A stretch of DNA of 64,000 bases from IMG/VR virus record IMGVR_UViG_3300050034_000334. One strand, 5' to 3'. Source of the DNA: a virus (Duplodnaviria; Caudoviricetes). The position numbers and the translations under genes were made by a program. Under the pieces are notes generated by a model. The model was not told the origin of the DNA, ran no database searches, and saw only the letters and a list, made by a program, of their open reading frames with translations. Below, one piece after another: positions 32,844 to 43,297 of the stretch. Each line of letters begins with the position of its first letter. Position 1 is the first letter of the stretch.

Positions 32844-34895
32844 ATGAAACAGTACCTCACACTTGCAGTTCTAGCTTTCTCTCTTCCGATGTGGGCTCAG
32901 AGCACGGTTGCAACCGGAGACTCTAGAACAGTCACTGAGCCCATCTTTCCGTCAATCTGTGCAAGAGTGAATGCAACAAAGTACATCAAGCAGACGACTG
33001 CTGTGAACATTGATCCCTGGAATTCAACATGTGGATCTACTGGAGGAACCTTTGGGATTCTCTGGTGCACTGGAGGCACGGATTATCAGCCCTCGTCTTC
33101 GTCGAGCAGCTATGTCTCGGCGGAAACTCTGGACAACACGGCTGTACAGAATGCACTGAACTCTTGTCCCAGTGGTCAGGGAGTTGAATTGATCCCGGGC
33201 ACAAGTGGTCAAAATGCTTTCGTCCTCGCGCCGTTCAGCATCGTAAACAGTTCTGGAGCAGGAGTAAATCTCATTGTTGATGCAGGCATTCACGTGTTTG
33301 CCTCGCGCAATCTGTCTGACTACGGTGGCACCAACTGTGGACTGACAACTAACTCTACCAGTGATTGCAATCACTGGATCACTTCGCCCAGCACGACTGG
33401 CGCTGGCATCTATGGCTATGGAGTGCTTGATGGACGTGGATGGTCTGCTTACATCGGGCAAACAACTCATGGATTCTATGCCAATCGCATTCTAGCCTAC
33501 TGTGATGCTCATGGTGGAGCCATAGCTGGATCTCCCGGTTGCCCGAACACAACTTCTGGTGTGAACTCTTACGGGCCAAACGGGATCAATCTGATTGGCA
33601 CAACCAATTTCACCATGTACAAGATCTCATTGTGGAACAGTGGAAACTTCCTTATTAACTGGCAGAGTGGCAATGGGTTCACTGCCTGGGATGTGAAGCT
33701 GATCGCTCCGTTCGAAGTTTCGAATACGGATGGTTGGGATCCTCTCAACTCGACTAATGGTACGTTCACTCACAGCTTCATAAGTGTTGGTGATAACCAT
33801 ATGGCTGTGAAAGCAACATCAGGAGCTTCCTCCAACATCACGTTCTCAAATTCGCAAACCGGCGCTGGAATTGGAGTGGCAATTGGCACGAATGCTACAA
33901 ACGGGATATCCAACGTCCTGGTAGATACTTTGGTGCAAAATGGAAATCTCTACAGCACTCAGAGCGCAGGAATAATGATTGGATCGAGCACCGCAGACGG
34001 TGGCCTTGTCAACAAAGTGACCTATCGGAACGTCTGCATGGTGAACGAGTACAACTCGATTCGTTTATACACCAACTATGGCGGTAACACTGGGTCAAAT
34101 ATTCCTGTCTATCAAAACATCCTGCTGCGTAACATCACTGTGTTGCCCAGTACTGCTCCCTACACCACAGGCAACTCAGGCAGATATACCTTCCAGGGAT
34201 TAAGTGGACATCCAATAATTGCCCAAATCGACAACTTGCACATCCTGGGTACAAATCAAGGTGTCGCTGCTCAGTCAGGAGTAACGACTGATCAGTACTC
34301 GGCCATATACCTTGGTCCTGGGACGGTCGATTCCACGCTTCTAACCCAGTTTTCTGGTGGTACAGGAGTCACTACCTCTGGATCCACCACTTCCACTACG
34401 CAGTACGCTTGCACCAGCACAACCTGGCAGCCACTGATTGGCGAATTGAACATCAAGACTTCGGTTTCCAACAACAATCAAACAGCGACTGTGATAGCCT
34501 TGGCTCCGTTCACCCTACAGGCCGTCCTACAGCCATCGACAGCAATCAGCACAAAGGAATCTCCGGCTCTCACAGCCTCAGTGAATTTCTATGACAATTG
34601 TTTCACAACTCCGACAAGTTGTTCACCAATCGGAACTGTTGCGCTTTCAGGAGATGGGACATATGCTGCCTATACTCTATCCAGCGGAACTTCACTGGGA
34701 ACTCACAACTACATAGCTTATTATCCAGGAGATTCGAATTATCCAGCATACACATTTGGATCAGTCACGGTCACTGCAGTAACAGCGCCACCTGCTGCAA
34801 AGTCGTATGCACCCATTGTGATTGGTGAATTGGTGACCCCGGCAGGTTTCGAACCTGCGACCCTCTGCTTAGAAGGCAGATGCTCTATCCACTGA
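32844..34895 (+). CDS. Secreted GH28 polygalacturonase-like (PehA-like) beta-helix protein with C-terminal Ig-like domain
   Basis: Signal peptide, GDSRTVTEP, DGRG, NTDGWDP, VGDNHMAVK; last 21 codons antisense to tRNA-Arg. Confidence 0.8.
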   Translation: MKQYLTLAVLAFSLPMWAQSTVATGDSRTVTEPIFPSICARVNATKYIKQTTAVNIDPWNSTCGSTGGTFGILWCTGGTDYQPSSSSSSYVSAETLDNTAVQNALNSCPSGQGVELIPGTSGQNAFVLAPFSIVNSSGAGVNLIVDAGIHVFASRNLSDYGGTNCGLTTNSTSDCNHWITSPSTTGAGIYGYGVLDGRGWSAYIGQTTHGFYANRILAYCDAHGGAIAGSPGCPNTTSGVNSYGPNGINLIGTTNFTMYKISLWNSGNFLINWQSGNGFTAWDVKLIAPFEVSNTDGWDPLNSTNGTFTHSFISVGDNHMAVKATSGASSNITFSNSQTGAGIGVAIGTNATNGISNVLVDTLVQNGNLYSTQSAGIMIGSSTADGGLVNKVTYRNVCMVNEYNSIRLYTNYGGNTGSNIPVYQNILLRNITVLPSTAPYTTGNSGRYTFQGLSGHPIIAQIDNLHILGTNQGVAAQSGVTTDQYSAIYLGPGTVDSTLLTQFSGGTGVTTSGSTTSTTQYACTSTTWQPLIGELNIKTSVSNNNQTATVIALAPFTLQAVLQPSTAISTKESPALTASVNFYDNCFTTPTSCSPIGTVALSGDGTYAAYTLSSGTSLGTHNYIAYYPGDSNYPAYTFGSVTVTAVTAPPAAKSYAPIVIGELVTPAGFEPATLCLEGRCSIH

Positions 34896-34906
34896 GCTAC
34901 GAGGCC
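34831..34906 (-). tRNA. tRNA-Arg (TCT)
   Basis: Cloverleaf, loop CTTCTAA, CCA. Confidence 0.95.
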
Positions 34907-35149: not shown

Positions 35150-35226
35150 TGGTGACCGTGGAGGGGATTGAACCCCCGACCTGCGGTTTAGGAAACCACC
35201 GCTCTATCCAACTGAGCTACACGGTC
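35150..35226 (-). tRNA. tRNA-Arg (CCT)
   Basis: Cloverleaf, loop TTCCTAA, CCA. Confidence 0.95.
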
Positions 35227-38747: not shown

Positions 38748-38913
38748 CAACGCCGGTGCTCTATCCAGGCTGAGCTACCACCAAGCGAATGGACCGTTCC
38801 GCCGACCTTGATTCCCCTCTAGAAAAGGAATCCTGGGACTCTTAGGGCATGGTCACTTGCTCTGTCTAAACGGGTGGGTTGGATTCGGACCAACGACCAC
38901 CGGCTGCTTGTTG
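38748..38913 (-). ncRNA. Circularly permuted tRNA-like RNA (class I core, no anticodon loop, no CCA)
   Basis: 3' half (38904-38871) precedes 5' half (38784-38752); stems complementary. Confidence 0.75.
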
Positions 38914-40001: not shown

Positions 40002-40571
40002 TTGAATCCAGACTTTCGGAACCATTACTGGAGGTTCCAATTGAAATCTTGCGAAAATTGCACTACTCTTCACGATGGTACTTATGGTTCTGGTCGTTTC
40101 TGTTCAATTGGCTGTGCTAGAGGCTTTGCCACCAAAGCATCTAGGTTAAAAATCAACCAAGAAGTGAGTGCTAAACTGAAGGGTAAACCTGTTCGTAATC
40201 GTAGTCCTCATAGTAAAGAAGTGAAGGAAAAGATACGCAGAAGCATCAATCAAGGATTTCAAATCAAATTCCAAAAGTGGATAGATGACTGGCTTTCCGG
40301 AAAGATACATCCCACAAGAGCCAACTATAGAGTAGTGCACAAAGCATTAGCCATTTTAAGAGGAGATAAGTGTGAACAATGCGGTTGGAAAGAGGTTCAT
40401 CCGAAAACTGGACTTATCCCAGTGCAACTTCATCATATTGACGGTGATGGAGATAACAATTCACCAGATAATGTGAAACTGTTGTGTCCAAGCTGTCATT
40501 CACTCACTCTCAATTTCATGGCTTTGAACTACTACAACAAATTGTCAAAGATCACGCCGTTGTTCGCCTGA
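40002..40571 (+). CDS. HNH homing endonuclease, antisense to the tRNA operon
   Basis: CENC..HDG...CS..C; CEQCG..QLHHIDGDGDNN..NVKLLCPSCH. Confidence 0.88.
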   Translation: MNPDFRNHYWRFQLKSCENCTTLHDGTYGSGRFCSIGCARGFATKASRLKINQEVSAKLKGKPVRNRSPHSKEVKEKIRRSINQGFQIKFQKWIDDWLSGKIHPTRANYRVVHKALAILRGDKCEQCGWKEVHPKTGLIPVQLHHIDGDGDNNSPDNVKLLCPSCHSLTLNFMALNYYNKLSKITPLFA

Positions 40572-40693: not shown

Positions 40694-40770
40694 TGGTGAT
40701 CCCGGAGGGAGTTGAACCCCCAACCTTATGGTTCGTAGCCATACGCGCTATCCAGTTGCGCCACGGGACC
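40694..40770 (-). tRNA. tRNA-Arg (ACG)
   Basis: Cloverleaf, loop CTACGAA, CCA. Confidence 0.95.
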
Positions 40771-41010: not shown

Positions 41011-41134
41011 CAGTGATTACGGAATCCTTTGTAACAAAACACTCAACCATGAAGGATTCGAACCTTCGCTATGAATGCACCCAATCATGACACTGTTCAG
41101 CACCAGGGGTCTACAAAGGATTCCGTAATCACTG
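41011..41134 (-). ncRNA. Small RNA closed by a perfect 23 bp inverted repeat, contains a T-arm
   Basis: IR 41011-41033/41112-41134; GAAGG-TTCGAAT-CCTTC inside; starts just after promoter motif. Confidence 0.6.
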
Positions 41135-41384: not shown

Positions 41385-41414
41385 CTCTACGGTGGTCTGT
41401 GGAGGAACGGTTAG
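41385..41414 (-). promoter_or_regulatory. Bipartite promoter-like motif CTAACCG-N17-GTAGAG
   Basis: Motif match. Confidence 0.65.
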
Positions 41415-41426
41415 GCGGTCACTGGC

Positions 41427-42500
41427 TCATCGGTCAGTTGGGCATCGGCCATCGTTCAGACGAAGAGTGAACTGAGCGATATGAACTGGCTCATTCTCTT
41501 TGATGGCCTTCTGCCAGTAGAACTGATACTGACTGGCGTAACCTGCCAGCTGGGCATCCTCCAGTGTGAACTTCACAAAGGGGATGAGATTTTTGCCTCC
41601 CTCGATGCCGAACAAACGGGGACCAAGAGCCTTCCTGATTCTGGCATAGGTGTAGCTGATGTAGATGCCAGGACTGGTGACGTTGCACCAGTTCTCAATG
41701 TCGAGGATGGTGTTCTTCCCGACTGCAGCTGAGTTGAACTGCCAGGCCAGGACGTTCCATGCCAACTGAGGAGAGACTACAGCGTTCTCGCTGGGCTTGA
41801 TCACCTTGCTAACTTCTTCGAACAGTTCCTCAGCCGCCACAAGGTTCGCTTCTGCTCCCTCCTTCTCCCGGGAGCGCATCTTCTTGTAGTCCTTGCCCAG
41901 AACCAGACCCATCGGCTTGTGCTGATCTCCCAATCCCAGGCTCTTGAAATGTTCGTGTTGCTCATACCCTGTCAGATATAAGTCCGGAGCACAGAATTCT
42001 ACGAAGCTCAGATCGTGTGCTGCATAGGTTGGACGACCGTCAGAGCGGTATATCACGACACCGTTGAACATCTTACAGCCTTCGTACTCTCCGGTGCCGG
42101 GAGTCAGTGTGTATCCTGTGGGCGGCTTCATGTCCCTATCAAATAAGATGAATGGCTGATATCCGGAGATGTGACACCAGTTGTTGAATGCCGTGTACGC
42201 TCCCTCTTTCTCGCCAATGGTGACTCCCAGCATTGCGACTGGCTTGGCTTTGGTGATATTTGCCAGCGCGGCGGCGATTGCCAGGTTCTTGATGTGCCCG
42301 ACATGAAGGTCTTTGTTGAGGTTAGGTGAGAATCCATCCAGAGTTATCTCGGATGGTTTGGCTTTCTCAGGCCATTCCCAGACGGTTGGCGTTACATGGT
42401 AGTTGTGGTAAATACCCACAGATTCATAACGAAATCCCTTGAGATCGAGTGGAGTGAGTGAAGTGACACCAACTCCCACTTGTTCAGGTATAGGATGCAT
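41427..42500 (-). CDS. Minimal arginyl-tRNA synthetase-like class I aaRS
   Basis: FSPNLNKDLHVGH (HIGH), YRSDG.PTYAAHDL, GYEQHEHF, KMRSR (KMSKS), YISYTYARI. Confidence 0.8.
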   Translation of the reverse strand: MHPIPEQVGVGVTSLTPLDLKGFRYESVGIYHNYHVTPTVWEWPEKAKPSEITLDGFSPNLNKDLHVGHIKNLAIAAALANITKAKPVAMLGVTIGEKEGAYTAFNNWCHISGYQPFILFDRDMKPPTGYTLTPGTGEYEGCKMFNGVVIYRSDGRPTYAAHDLSFVEFCAPDLYLTGYEQHEHFKSLGLGDQHKPMGLVLGKDYKKMRSREKEGAEANLVAAEELFEEVSKVIKPSENAVVSPQLAWNVLAWQFNSAAVGKNTILDIENWCNVTSPGIYISYTYARIRKALGPRLFGIEGGKNLIPFVKFTLEDAQLAGYASQYQFYWQKAIKENEPVHIAQFTLRLNDGRCPTDR

Positions 42501-42553
42501 GAGATCTTCCTCTCCAACCACATTCTACCAGAAGATGCCGGAATAAGGCTAGT

Positions 42554-42589: not shown

Positions 42590-43297
42590 ATGAAAAAGAC
42601 AATCCGTCTCACCGTGGGCAATGTCGAAACCTCTGGCGCGGAAGCTATTGTCAACGCAGCGAACAGGCATCTCAAGACTGGTCGCGGTGTATGCGGTGCG
42701 ATCTATGCCGCCGCTGGCGTGACAGAGCTTGAAACCTATGTAGCAGATCACTTTGAAGGCTGCCGCACCGGCAGAGCCGTGGTGACTCCAGCGTTTGGCA
42801 TCAGCGGATCCAAGTATGTCCTCCACGCTGTTGGTCCGATCTACTCCGAATACACTCCCCTAGAGGCGGCTCGCCTCCTCCGCAAAGCCTATCACTCGAT
42901 CTTTGAACTCTGCTACTCGCTGGGAGTCAAGAATGTCGGCGTCGTGGCGATCTCGTCTGGTATCTACGGGTATCCGGTTGAAGACGTTGCGAACATCGCG
43001 GCTGACGAGGCCATGCGCACCCCTTACAAGGGCGACATCACCTTCTACGTCTGGCAGGACAATCTGGCCGTCTTCGAGAAAGCCTTCGCTTCGATCCTCA
43101 CTCCAGCAGTTCCTGTGATCGTCGATAAGTGCGCTGTATGCGATTTGCCGGCTGACCACATCGACCATATCGGCCTTCTTGGAATGGGAATTGACCATCC
43201 TTTCAAAAGTTCACTGCAGCCAGTTACACCAGTATCTGATCCTGTGGACGCGAGCACGCGCAAGGTCTTCACGATGGATGACCCAGCAGTAGTCTGA
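42590..43297 (+). CDS. Macrodomain ADP-ribose hydrolase
   Basis: AIVNAAN..L..G.GVCGAIYAAAG, VLHAVGPIY, AISSGIYGYP. Confidence 0.93.
   Translation: MKKTIRLTVGNVETSGAEAIVNAANRHLKTGRGVCGAIYAAAGVTELETYVADHFEGCRTGRAVVTPAFGISGSKYVLHAVGPIYSEYTPLEAARLLRKAYHSIFELCYSLGVKNVGVVAISSGIYGYPVEDVANIAADEAMRTPYKGDITFYVWQDNLAVFEKAFASILTPAVPVIVDKCAVCDLPADHIDHIGLLGMGIDHPFKSSLQPVTPVSDPVDASTRKVFTMDDPAVV

What the first reader, a model, noticed from the sequence alone, without database searches (positions are those of the whole stretch)
41427..42500. Minimised ArgRS-like protein immediately upstream of the tRNA array
It has HIGH and KMSKS-type motifs but is only ~357 aa. Most of the N-terminal (A20-reading) domain and the insertion domain are missing, and the anticodon-binding domain appears cut short after HIAQFTLRL. 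Inference: relaxed-specificity synthetase, tRNA-binding protein or non-canonical amide ligase; a possible partner of the Arg-like permuted RNA.
Basis: partly seen in the sequence, partly recalled or inferred. Interest (0 to 1): 0.6.

Follow-up and report, generated by a model that had tools for sequence, protein, structure and literature searches.

The report
Deletion-truncated compact phage arginyl-tRNA synthetase gene
This jumbo-phage gene belongs to an unusually small (about 395 residues) arginyl-tRNA synthetase family found almost only in huge phages, but this copy has lost its last 46 codons to a 901-base deletion and is most likely a recently broken allele, not a further-minimised enzyme.

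Summary
Window 41427-42500 (-) encodes a 357-aa ArgRS-like protein with HIGH (HVGH) and a KMSKS-like loop (KKMRSR). It stops making family sense after ...HIAQFTLRL.

Two separate things explain it.

1. The gene belongs to a conserved family of compact ArgRS (about 385-410 aa), found on 45 IMG/VR viral contigs, many of 200-675 kb. In 185,579 species genomes it appears on only a few uncultured-genome (MAG) contigs. The full-length form folds confidently (pLDDT 93) and matches ArgRS structures best (Z 30.6). It keeps the arginine-pocket residues, the DALR domain and the Asn-bearing strand at the end of the N-terminal domain. The genes sit next to phage tRNA-Arg genes more often than chance (10 of 21 loci, P about 1e-4).

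2. The window copy is cut by a clean 901-bp deletion. A 98.6% identical contig (L003) carries the missing 46 codons plus three small genes. The deletion removes 40% of the DALR domain, including two positions invariant from canonical to compact ArgRS, and adds 9 out-of-frame residues. The same truncated protein is on 5 contigs (longest 342 kb). Two other deletion alleles exist, and the cultured relative Tunturi_5 lacks the gene.

Verdict: a recently broken allele of a dispensable accessory gene. This scan had already noted the compact family on other DNA.

The parts
41457..42500 (-). Native part of the compact ArgRS gene, codons 1-348 (ATG start)
   Evidence: 347 of 348 residues identical to full-length P0002. 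98.6% nucleotide identity to L003 3876-6043. PF00750 hit.
41427..41456 (-). Nine foreign codons (NDGRCPTDR) plus TGA stop, read out of frame from the tail of a neighbouring gene
   Evidence: The same bases in L003 (6946-6975) are the in-frame end of a 143-aa membrane-protein ORF.
41457..41458 (.). Deletion junction: 901 bp present in L003 (6044-6944) are missing between these two bases
   Evidence: blastn colinearity: L003 ..6043 = window 41458 and L003 6945.. = window 41457. Sequences read. At most 1 nt of microhomology.
41411..41457 (-). Remnant (last 15 codons plus stop) of the 143-aa transmembrane ORF that follows ArgRS in the intact allele
   Evidence: L003 ORF 6560..6991, aligned to the window. 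Bases counted.
42294..42305 (-). HIGH motif (HVGH, residues 66-69), preceded by SPNLNK (42312-42329), which includes the Lys upstream of HIGH
   Evidence: P59, N60, K63, G68 and H69 are invariant in compact and canonical ArgRS.
41868..41885 (-). KMSKS-like loop (KKMRSR, residues 206-211)
   Evidence: K206 is invariant in A2. It aligns with canonical GKKMSTR / GKPFKTR.
41946..42029 (-). Arginine-pocket motifs TYAAHD (158-163) and YEQHEHF (179-185)
   Evidence: Y159, D163 and Q181 are invariant in A1 and A2. Coordinates. The assignment to arginine binding rests on my recollection of the yeast ArgRS structure papers.
42396..42413 (-). IYHNYH strand, the last strand of the remnant N-terminal (Add-1) sheet
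   Evidence: N33 is invariant in A2 and at least 90% conserved in A1. The family profile aligns it with N102 of N. gonorrhoeae ArgRS. The model has strands at 11-14, 24-28 and 31-35.
42507..42515 (-). Shine-Dalgarno-like GGAGAGGAA, 6 nt before the ATG at 42500
   Evidence: Sequence read.
40694..40770 (-). tRNA-Arg(ACG) with A20, the first tRNA downstream of the gene
   Evidence: ARAGORN and Rfam. D-loop AACTGGATA.

Best explanation
The ORF is a member of a huge-phage family of compact arginyl-tRNA synthetases (about 385-410 aa). The family keeps the class I Rossmann core (HIGH, KMSKS-like loop, arginine pocket), the DALR anticodon-binding domain and a three-stranded remnant of the N-terminal domain. 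It has shed the rest of that domain and most of the insertion modules. It most likely still charges tRNA-Arg, including the phage's own A20-bearing tRNA-Arg species encoded nearby. In this genome a single 901-bp deletion removed the last 46 codons (half of the penultimate helix, the last helix and the C-terminal tail of the DALR domain) together with two small genes and most of a third. The gene was fused out of frame to the tail of a membrane-protein gene. ArgRS needs correctly bound tRNA even to activate arginine (established knowledge), and the lost segment holds residues invariant across all ArgRS. The 357-aa product is therefore most likely inactive or unstable: a recent pseudogene of a dispensable accessory gene. 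Shown here: the family, the fold, the deletion and the coexistence of several alleles. Inferred: arginylation activity of the intact form and loss of function in the truncated form.
For: Family: 257 proteins at E<=1e-3 in the word-indexed search, typical length 380-450 aa, many on contigs of 130-650 kb. There are 123 clusters (50% identity) at E<=1e-10, while canonical ArgRS appears only at about 1e-6. 45 IMG/VR loci were fetched. Only MAG contigs and no isolates turned up among 185,579 species genomes.

Fold: the AF2 model of the full-length form has pLDDT 93.1 and pTM 0.92. The best structural matches are all ArgRS (6ao8 Z 30.6, 378 of 394 residues aligned; 4oby Z 30.2), against about 22 for CysRS and MetRS. 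A family profile finds only ArgRS in the PDB (E 3e-20).

Conserved residues: N60, K63, G68, H69, Y159, D163, Q181, K206, Y280, Y283, R287, Y356 and L386 are invariant across compact and canonical ArgRS.

tRNA link: the nearest tRNA gene is tRNA-Arg in 10 of 21 loci (label permutation mean 4.25, P about 1e-4). 19 of 22 of the tRNA-Arg genes in these loci have A20, against 3 of 81 other tRNAs.

Deletion: window 43625-41458 matches L003 3876-6043 and window 41457-40688 matches L003 6945-7716. The 901 bp between them hold the ArgRS 3' end and ORFs of 57, 64 and 143 aa. The missing C-terminus is nowhere in the window or in the 187-kb record. In P0002, DALR_1 (PF05746) spans residues 282-393 and the window stops at 348; DALR is no longer detected in the window copy.

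Population: the exact truncated protein is on 5 contigs, the longest 342 kb. Full-length alleles are on about 17 contigs. Two further deletion alleles exist: P0262 (a 1130-bp deletion at a TGCTG microhomology, 6 contigs) and P0260 (an in-frame 63-bp deletion). The only cultured relative, Tunturi_5 (308.7 kb, complete), has no match to the family profile at E<=1.
Against: The remaining 348 codons have no stops or frameshifts. Divergence from L003 shows purifying selection (12 synonymous and 7 non-synonymous codon changes, dN/dS about 0.17). This fits a very recent deletion, but it equally fits a truncated protein that is still in use. The allele is carried by at least five assembled contigs, so it is not strongly deleterious. 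No enzyme activity of any family member has been measured. Loss of function is inferred from conservation and the model, not tested.
Confidence: 0.72

Rival explanations
1. The truncated 357-aa protein is still functional, for example as a synthetase with weakened anticodon reading or as a tRNA-binding protein, and the deletion allele is maintained for that reason.
For: The catalytic core, arginine pocket and N-terminal strand are intact. The ORF is otherwise undamaged, with dN/dS about 0.17 against L003. The allele is present on 5 contigs, including one of 342 kb.
Against: The break falls in the middle of helix 339-358 and removes helix 366-385 and the tail. That is 40% of the DALR domain, including Y356 and L386, which are invariant in all ArgRS aligned, and I361, G364, L379 and M388, which are at least 90% conserved in the family. 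A 901-bp out-of-frame fusion that also destroys three neighbouring genes looks accidental. Other alleles delete far more of the gene (P0262). The cultured relative has no such gene.
Confidence: 0.15
2. The compact family as a whole is not a tRNA-charging enzyme. It would be an ArgRS paralogue with another job: a non-canonical amide ligase, a tRNA-modifying enzyme like GluQRS, or a partner of the anticodon-less tRNA-Arg mimic.
For: TIGR00456 scores only 54.9 bits against a cut-off of 261.65. Most of Add-1 and the insertions are missing. aaRS paralogues with new functions are known (MshC appears among the structural matches at Z 19.9).
Against: Known repurposed paralogues have lost or changed the anticodon-binding domain or the substrate pocket (my recollection of GluQRS and MshC). 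Here DALR, the arginine-pocket residues, HIGH and the KMSKS-like loop are all conserved. ArgRS structures beat all other class I enzymes by about 8 Z units. The genes are significantly linked to A20-bearing tRNA-Arg genes.
Confidence: 0.08
3. The truncation is an artefact (chimeric assembly), or the gene is split by an intron and its 3' part is encoded elsewhere.
For: The record is a metagenome-assembled virus fragment, 60% complete. Strain mixtures can produce chimeric contigs.
Against: The identical 364-aa product (called from the upstream GTG) is on 5 contigs. Both flanks are colinear with L003 at 98.6-99% identity. The missing 901 bp contain three other ORFs, not an intron-like insert in the window. 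No C-terminal coding piece exists anywhere in the window or the 187-kb record. No intron family was hit by Rfam at E<=1.
Confidence: 0.03

Closest known systems
Canonical bacterial arginyl-tRNA synthetase (ArgS; TIGR00456; PDB 4oby, 5b63, 6ao8, 1iq0)
   Same: Same fold and domain order: Rossmann core then DALR (Z 30, about 380 residues aligned). Same HIGH region with the upstream Lys, the KMSKS-like GKKM.SR loop, the Y...D and Q..HF arginine-pocket motifs, the Y..Y...R DALR motif and the conserved Asn strand before the core.
   Different: About 395 aa instead of 535-610. The N-terminal domain is reduced from about 100 residues to a three-stranded remnant of about 35, with no PF03485 hit. HIGH to EQxxHF is 120-150 codons instead of 212-234. 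Sequence identity is only 15-24%. It fails the TIGR00456 cut-off. The window copy also lacks the last 46 residues.
Compact ArgRS family of huge phages, as annotated by JGI ('arginyl-tRNA synthetase') and noted earlier in this scan on other genomes (e1-5377879, e1-5468716, e1-5869844)
   Same: The window gene is a member. It is 99.7% identical to P0002 over 348 residues, 57-58% to the next clade and 35-48% to the rest.
   Different: It is a 3'-truncated allele: 348 native residues plus 9 foreign ones, against 385-410 in intact members.
tRNA synthetases of huge phages in general (Al-Shayeb et al. 2020, PMC7162821)
   Same: [quoted passage not shown]
   Different: That paper does not describe ArgRS or a compact form in its main text (0 occurrences of 'arginyl' or 'ArgRS'). 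Here ArgRS is the only synthetase-like gene found in the 187-kb record; six other aaRS Pfam families gave no match.
Synthetase paralogues with lost domains (GluQRS/YadB, MshC)
   Same: Class I cores that have been trimmed. MshC appears among the structural matches (Z 19.9).
   Different: Those have changed substrates or lost the anticodon-binding domain (my recollection). The compact ArgRS family keeps both the arginine pocket and DALR.

Membership tests
Arginyl-tRNA synthetase (EC 6.1.1.19) | Class I Rossmann catalytic domain with HIGH signature | tested here: met
   PF00750 at 26.5 bits, above the 23.3 cut-off. HVGH at residues 66-69. G68 and H69 invariant. Fold Z 30.6 to ArgRS (full-length allele).
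Arginyl-tRNA synthetase (EC 6.1.1.19) | KMSKS-type loop or the compensating Lys upstream of HIGH | tested here: met
   KKMRSR at 206-211 with K206 invariant, and K63 in SPNLNK invariant.
Arginyl-tRNA synthetase (EC 6.1.1.19) | Arginine-pocket residues (acidic residue and Asn before HIGH; Tyr...Asp; Gln of the Q..HF motif) | tested here: met
   D55 (at least 90% conserved); N60, Y159, D163 and Q181 invariant in A1 and A2. The mapping to arginine contacts rests on my recollection of the yeast ArgRS structures.
Arginyl-tRNA synthetase (EC 6.1.1.19) | Complete DALR anticodon-binding domain (PF05746) | tested here: not met
   Met in the intact allele (P0002 residues 282-393, 23.7 bits against a 22.3 cut-off). 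In the window copy the domain ends at residue 348, lacks Y356 and L386, and gives no PF05746 hit at E<=1.
Arginyl-tRNA synthetase (EC 6.1.1.19) | N-terminal Add-1 domain (PF03485) that reads the tRNA D-loop | tested here: not met
   No PF03485 hit in the window copy or in four full-length members scanned, nor in the precomputed Pfam columns. Only about 50 residues precede the core. A three-strand remnant with the conserved aromatic-x-Asn strand is kept.
Arginyl-tRNA synthetase (EC 6.1.1.19) | Score above the NCBIfam equivalog cut-off (TIGR00456) | tested here: not met
   54.9 bits against 261.65.
Arginyl-tRNA synthetase (EC 6.1.1.19) | tRNA-dependent arginine activation and arginylation of tRNA-Arg | not testable with these tools
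   Only indirect evidence: significant adjacency to tRNA-Arg genes.
Compact ArgRS family of huge phages | Length 385-410 aa with the conserved N-terminal P.P...G.GF ... YHNYH region and the C-terminal LAKKL...Y...LLGM tail | tested here: inconclusive
   The N-terminal and core features are present and the sequence is 99.7% identical to member P0002. The C-terminal tail is absent because of the 901-bp deletion. The gene is a member by descent but a broken one.
Compact ArgRS family of huge phages | Carried by large phage genomes rather than by cells | tested here: met
   The window lies in a 187-kb IMG/VR record. 45 viral contigs carry relatives, many of 200-675 kb. Only a few MAG contigs appear among 185,579 species genomes.

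The most novel reading that the evidence does not exclude
The repeated, independent deletions in this one gene are not neutral decay but selected escape. There are three deletion alleles on about 12 of 29 contigs of one phage population, and the gene is absent from the cultured relative. Under this reading the compact ArgRS, or its charged product, is sensed by a host defence or is costly in some hosts, so phages that lose it win there, while the intact gene is favoured in hosts that restrict arginine decoding. The locus would then be a balanced presence/absence polymorphism of a phage translation gene.
Probability: 0.1. Interest if true: 0.6.

Novelty: new variant of a known kind. Interest (0 to 1): 0.33.

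Why it matters
The compact family is a natural experiment in how far an ArgRS can be pared down: about 180 residues fewer, with Add-1 reduced to one small sheet. It may still read A20 and the anticodon. That is useful for understanding tRNA-Arg identity and as a small scaffold for engineered translation systems. I found no paper that describes it, but JGI already annotates members as arginyl-tRNA synthetase and this scan had met the family on other genomes. What is specific to this window is mundane but informative. Intact and deleted alleles coexist in one phage population, which shows directly that a phage-borne synthetase is an expendable accessory gene. It also warns against reading the shortened end as a designed feature.

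Tried and rejected
1. Intron or split gene. I looked for the missing 46 residues by tblastn (word size 2) in the window and in the whole 187-kb record and found only noise. Rfam at E<=1 gave tRNAs only between 33 and 57 kb. Rejected.

2. Frameshift or sequencing error. Rejected, because the downstream bases are colinear with a different part of L003, 901 bp further on.

3. Alternative genetic code. Not needed; the ORF is open in table 11 and the break is a deletion.

4. Close DNA relatives in GenBank phages. None by megablast. By tblastn only two uncultured huge phages matched, at 30-34% identity.

I therefore could not fetch the 342-kb contig carrying the truncated allele, the P0262-type contigs, or the long contigs of P0027, P0032 and P0036.

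6. The search for related loci with single proteins P0002, P0027 and P0036 in viral contigs gave nothing useful. The alignment query worked.

7. Partnership with the tRNA-Arg mimic. BLAST of window 38748-38913 against Tunturi_5 gave only 22-25-nt matches.

8. Residue-level check of the A20-reading Tyr/Asn of T. thermophilus ArgRS. phmmer alignments to 1iq0 start only at residue 99, and the Shimada 2001 and Delagoutte 2000 papers are not held. The N33 equivalence rests on MAFFT alignment A2 and the profile alignment to 6ao8.

9. I did not fold the truncated protein. AlphaFold with a family alignment would reproduce the parent fold and says nothing about stability.

Full report
**What is there.** The minus strand carries an ORF at 41427..42521 (364 aa from GTG) or 41427..42500 (357 aa from ATG). 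Pfam gives only the ArgRS catalytic domain PF00750 (26.5 bits, cut-off 23.3). NCBIfam gives argS TIGR00456 at 54.9 bits, far below its 261.65 cut-off. PHROGs gives one family of unknown function. HVGH is at residues 66-69 and KKMRSR at 206-211. The gene lies in a 187,058-bp IMG/VR virus record estimated to be 60% complete. Its only relative among GenBank phages for a tail protein is Tunturiibacter phage Tunturi_5 (308.7 kb, Acidobacteriota host). Eleven tRNA genes follow the gene on the same strand, the first being tRNA-Arg(ACG) at 40694-40770.

**The family.** A search of 5.8 billion proteins returned 257 relatives at E<=1e-3, nearly all 380-450 aa long. Many are on contigs of 130-650 kb, and where a source names them it calls them 'arginyl-tRNA synthetase'. 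An exhaustive HMMER search of 1.84 billion cluster representatives found 178 clusters at E<=1e-3 and 123 at E<=1e-10. Canonical ArgRS of 535-610 aa appear only at the fringe, around E 1e-6. A pattern scan with the family alignment (A1, 37 sequences) found 45 loci on IMG/VR viral contigs, many of 200-675 kb. In one genome for each of 185,579 prokaryotic species it found only a handful of MAG contigs and no isolate. This is therefore a virus-borne, uniformly short ArgRS-like family, not a set of fragments.

**Fold and conserved residues.**
- AlphaFold2 on A1 gives a confident model of the intact 394-aa form (pLDDT 93.1, pTM 0.92).
- Foldseek's first 20 PDB matches are all ArgRS. VIA-align gives Z 30.6 to N. 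gonorrhoeae ArgRS (378 of 394 residues aligned, rmsd 3.4) and Z 30.2 to E. coli ArgRS, against about 22 for CysRS and MetRS.
- The family profile hits only ArgRS chains in the PDB (best E 3e-20).
- Alignment with five canonical ArgRS (A2) shows where the roughly 180 residues went. Most of the N-terminal domain is gone, as is a block of about 70 residues after the HIGH helix, a block of about 25 residues before the G-x-x-x-x-[RK]-S-D-G strand, and several short loops. HIGH to EQxxHF is 120-150 codons in all 45 phage loci against 212-234 in canonical genes.
- Invariant across both groups are N33, P59, N60, K63, G68, H69, Y159, D163, Q181, K206, Y280, Y283, R287, L348, Y356 and L386.
- As I recall the yeast ArgRS structure papers, the acidic residue and Asn before HIGH, the Tyr...Asp pair and the Gln of Q..HF form the arginine pocket. 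All are kept.

**The N-terminal remnant.** The first 35 residues of the model form three strands (11-14, 24-28, 31-35). The last strand (G-I-Y-H-N-Y-H) aligns with the canonical G-F-[IL]-N strand that closes the Add-1 domain, both in MAFFT alignment A2 and in the profile alignment to 6ao8, where family N33 pairs with N102. As I recall Shimada et al. 2001 (title cited in PMC9976931), an aromatic-x-Asn pair in this domain (Tyr77 and Asn79 in T. thermophilus) is required for A20 recognition. I could not confirm the residue equivalence directly. The family keeps an aromatic residue two positions before the near-invariant Asn.

**Link to tRNA-Arg.** Of 47 loci, 21 have a tRNA gene within about 4 kb. 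The nearest one is tRNA-Arg in 10 of these 21. Shuffling tRNA labels within loci gives a mean of 4.25 and reaches 10 in about 1 of 10,000 trials. A few loci are near-duplicates, so the effective sample is somewhat smaller. Of the 22 tRNA-Arg genes in these loci and in the window, 19 have A after G18-G19, against 3 of 81 other tRNAs. A20 and C35 are the main bacterial arginine identity elements (PMC9976931). The phage tRNA-Arg species therefore look chargeable by a host ArgRS as well, which fits the synthetase being dispensable.

**Why this copy is short.**
- P0002 (394 aa) matches the window protein at 347 of 348 residues and then continues for 46 residues that every aligned family member has. 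These residues are encoded nowhere in the window or the 187-kb record.
- A metagenome contig with the intact allele (L003, Ga0181534_10002777) is colinear with the window on both sides: L003 3876-6043 matches window 43625-41458 at 98.6%, and L003 6945-7716 matches window 41457-40688 at 99.0%.
- The 901 bp between them (L003 6044-6944) hold the last 46 ArgRS codons, a 57-aa CxxC...CxxC ORF, a 64-aa ORF and most of a 143-aa membrane-protein ORF. None of the three has a Pfam match.
- In the window the ArgRS frame runs out of frame into the last 47 bases of that 143-aa ORF, giving NDGRCPTDR and a stop. The junction has at most one base of microhomology, and 901 is not a multiple of three. This is an ordinary illegitimate deletion.

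**What was lost.** In the model the break falls in the middle of helix 339-358 and removes helix 366-385 and the tail. Pfam DALR_1 covers residues 282-393 of P0002, so 40% of the anticodon-binding domain is gone, and the domain is no longer detected in the window protein. The lost part contains Y356 and L386, which are invariant from canonical to compact ArgRS, and I361, G364, L379 and M388, which are at least 90% conserved in the family. ArgRS is one of the synthetases that need bound cognate tRNA to activate the amino acid (established knowledge). A broken anticodon-binding domain should therefore abolish both steps. This is an inference, not a measurement.

**Population picture.** The 90%-identity cluster holds these forms:
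- full-length forms (394 or 401 aa, depending on the start called) on about 17 contigs;
- the exact truncated window protein on 5 contigs, the longest 342 kb, which rules out a one-off misassembly;
- P0262, in which codon 91 is joined to the hairpin/T-arm element downstream of the gene, on 6 contigs; relative to the window this is a 1130-bp deletion (42227-41098) between two TGCTG pentamers;
- P0260, with an in-frame 63-bp deletion in a variable surface segment.

Window versus L003 differs at 12 synonymous and 7 non-synonymous codons (dN/dS about 0.17), similar to the neighbouring macrodomain gene (5 and 3). The truncation is therefore recent and has not yet been followed by further decay. Tunturi_5 has no match to the family profile at E<=1. 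Six other aaRS catalytic Pfam families give nothing in the 187-kb record. The gene is thus a lone, accessory synthetase that this phage lineage gains and loses.

**Comparison with what is known.** The family works like, and descends from, ArgRS, but it fails two formal membership tests (the TIGR00456 cut-off and PF03485). The window copy also fails a third, a complete DALR domain. Al-Shayeb et al. 2020 report up to 15 synthetases in huge phages but do not mention ArgRS or compact forms in the main text. Four literature searches found no description of a compact phage ArgRS. The scan's own notes record the same family on three other genomes.

**Verdict.** There is no support for an amide-ligase role or a partnership with the tRNA mimic. 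Interest is moderate to low for this locus, and the family itself is the more interesting object.

Noticed in passing
window 40002-40571 (+) versus L003 7875-8423 (+): At the same place in the tRNA array, after tRNA-Arg(ACG) and tRNA-Met, the window has an HNH-like ORF (PF01844, 20.9 bits, just under cut-off). The intact-allele contig has a GIY-YIG-like ORF instead (PF01541, 19.2 bits). Different homing-endonuclease-like genes occupy one site in near-identical phages.
   Followed up: partly
window 43798/43799 versus L003 2238-3703: L003 carries about 1.47 kb that the window lacks, between otherwise 97-98% identical flanks. It holds a 201-aa and a 110-aa ORF. This is a second indel polymorphism within 2.5 kb of the ArgRS gene.
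   Followed up: no
window 41011-41134 (hairpin/T-arm element) and allele P0262: The P0262-type deletion ends at window 41097/41098, inside the 23-bp-stem element noted by others. It removes the 5' arm of that element, so the element is also dispensable in those genomes.
   Followed up: partly
proteins P0027, P0032, P0036, P0155 (contigs of 233-648 kb for the first three): Four divergent family members are called from the conserved internal Met of the AMLG motif and lack the HIGH-bearing first 90 or so residues. They could be recoded stops, split genes or true 5' truncations. The contigs could not be fetched.
   Followed up: partly
proteins P0127 (1077 aa) and P0030 (573 aa): Two longer relatives exist. 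In P0127 the compact ArgRS module is residues 685-1031, behind an unassigned N-terminal region of about 680 residues. P0030 has a 120-residue N-terminal extension and a Cys-rich insert. Pfam sees only PF00750 and PF05746 in both.
   Followed up: partly
L004, L005 and proteins P0004-P0011 (57-58% identical clade): In the nearest clade the protein is only 330-356 aa as called. The tblastn match starts at residue 22 of P0002, so the first strands of the N-terminal remnant may be absent while the YHNYH strand is kept. The gene there sits between tRNA-Asn and tRNA-Lys genes.
   Followed up: no
window 34831-34906, 35150-35226, 40694-40770: All three phage tRNA-Arg genes (TCT, CCT, ACG) carry A20 and an encoded CCA end.
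   Followed up: yes
window 42590-43297 (+): The divergently transcribed neighbour of the ArgRS gene is a clear macrodomain protein (PF01661, 100.6 bits). It is conserved at dN/dS about 0.19 between the two alleles.
   Followed up: partly
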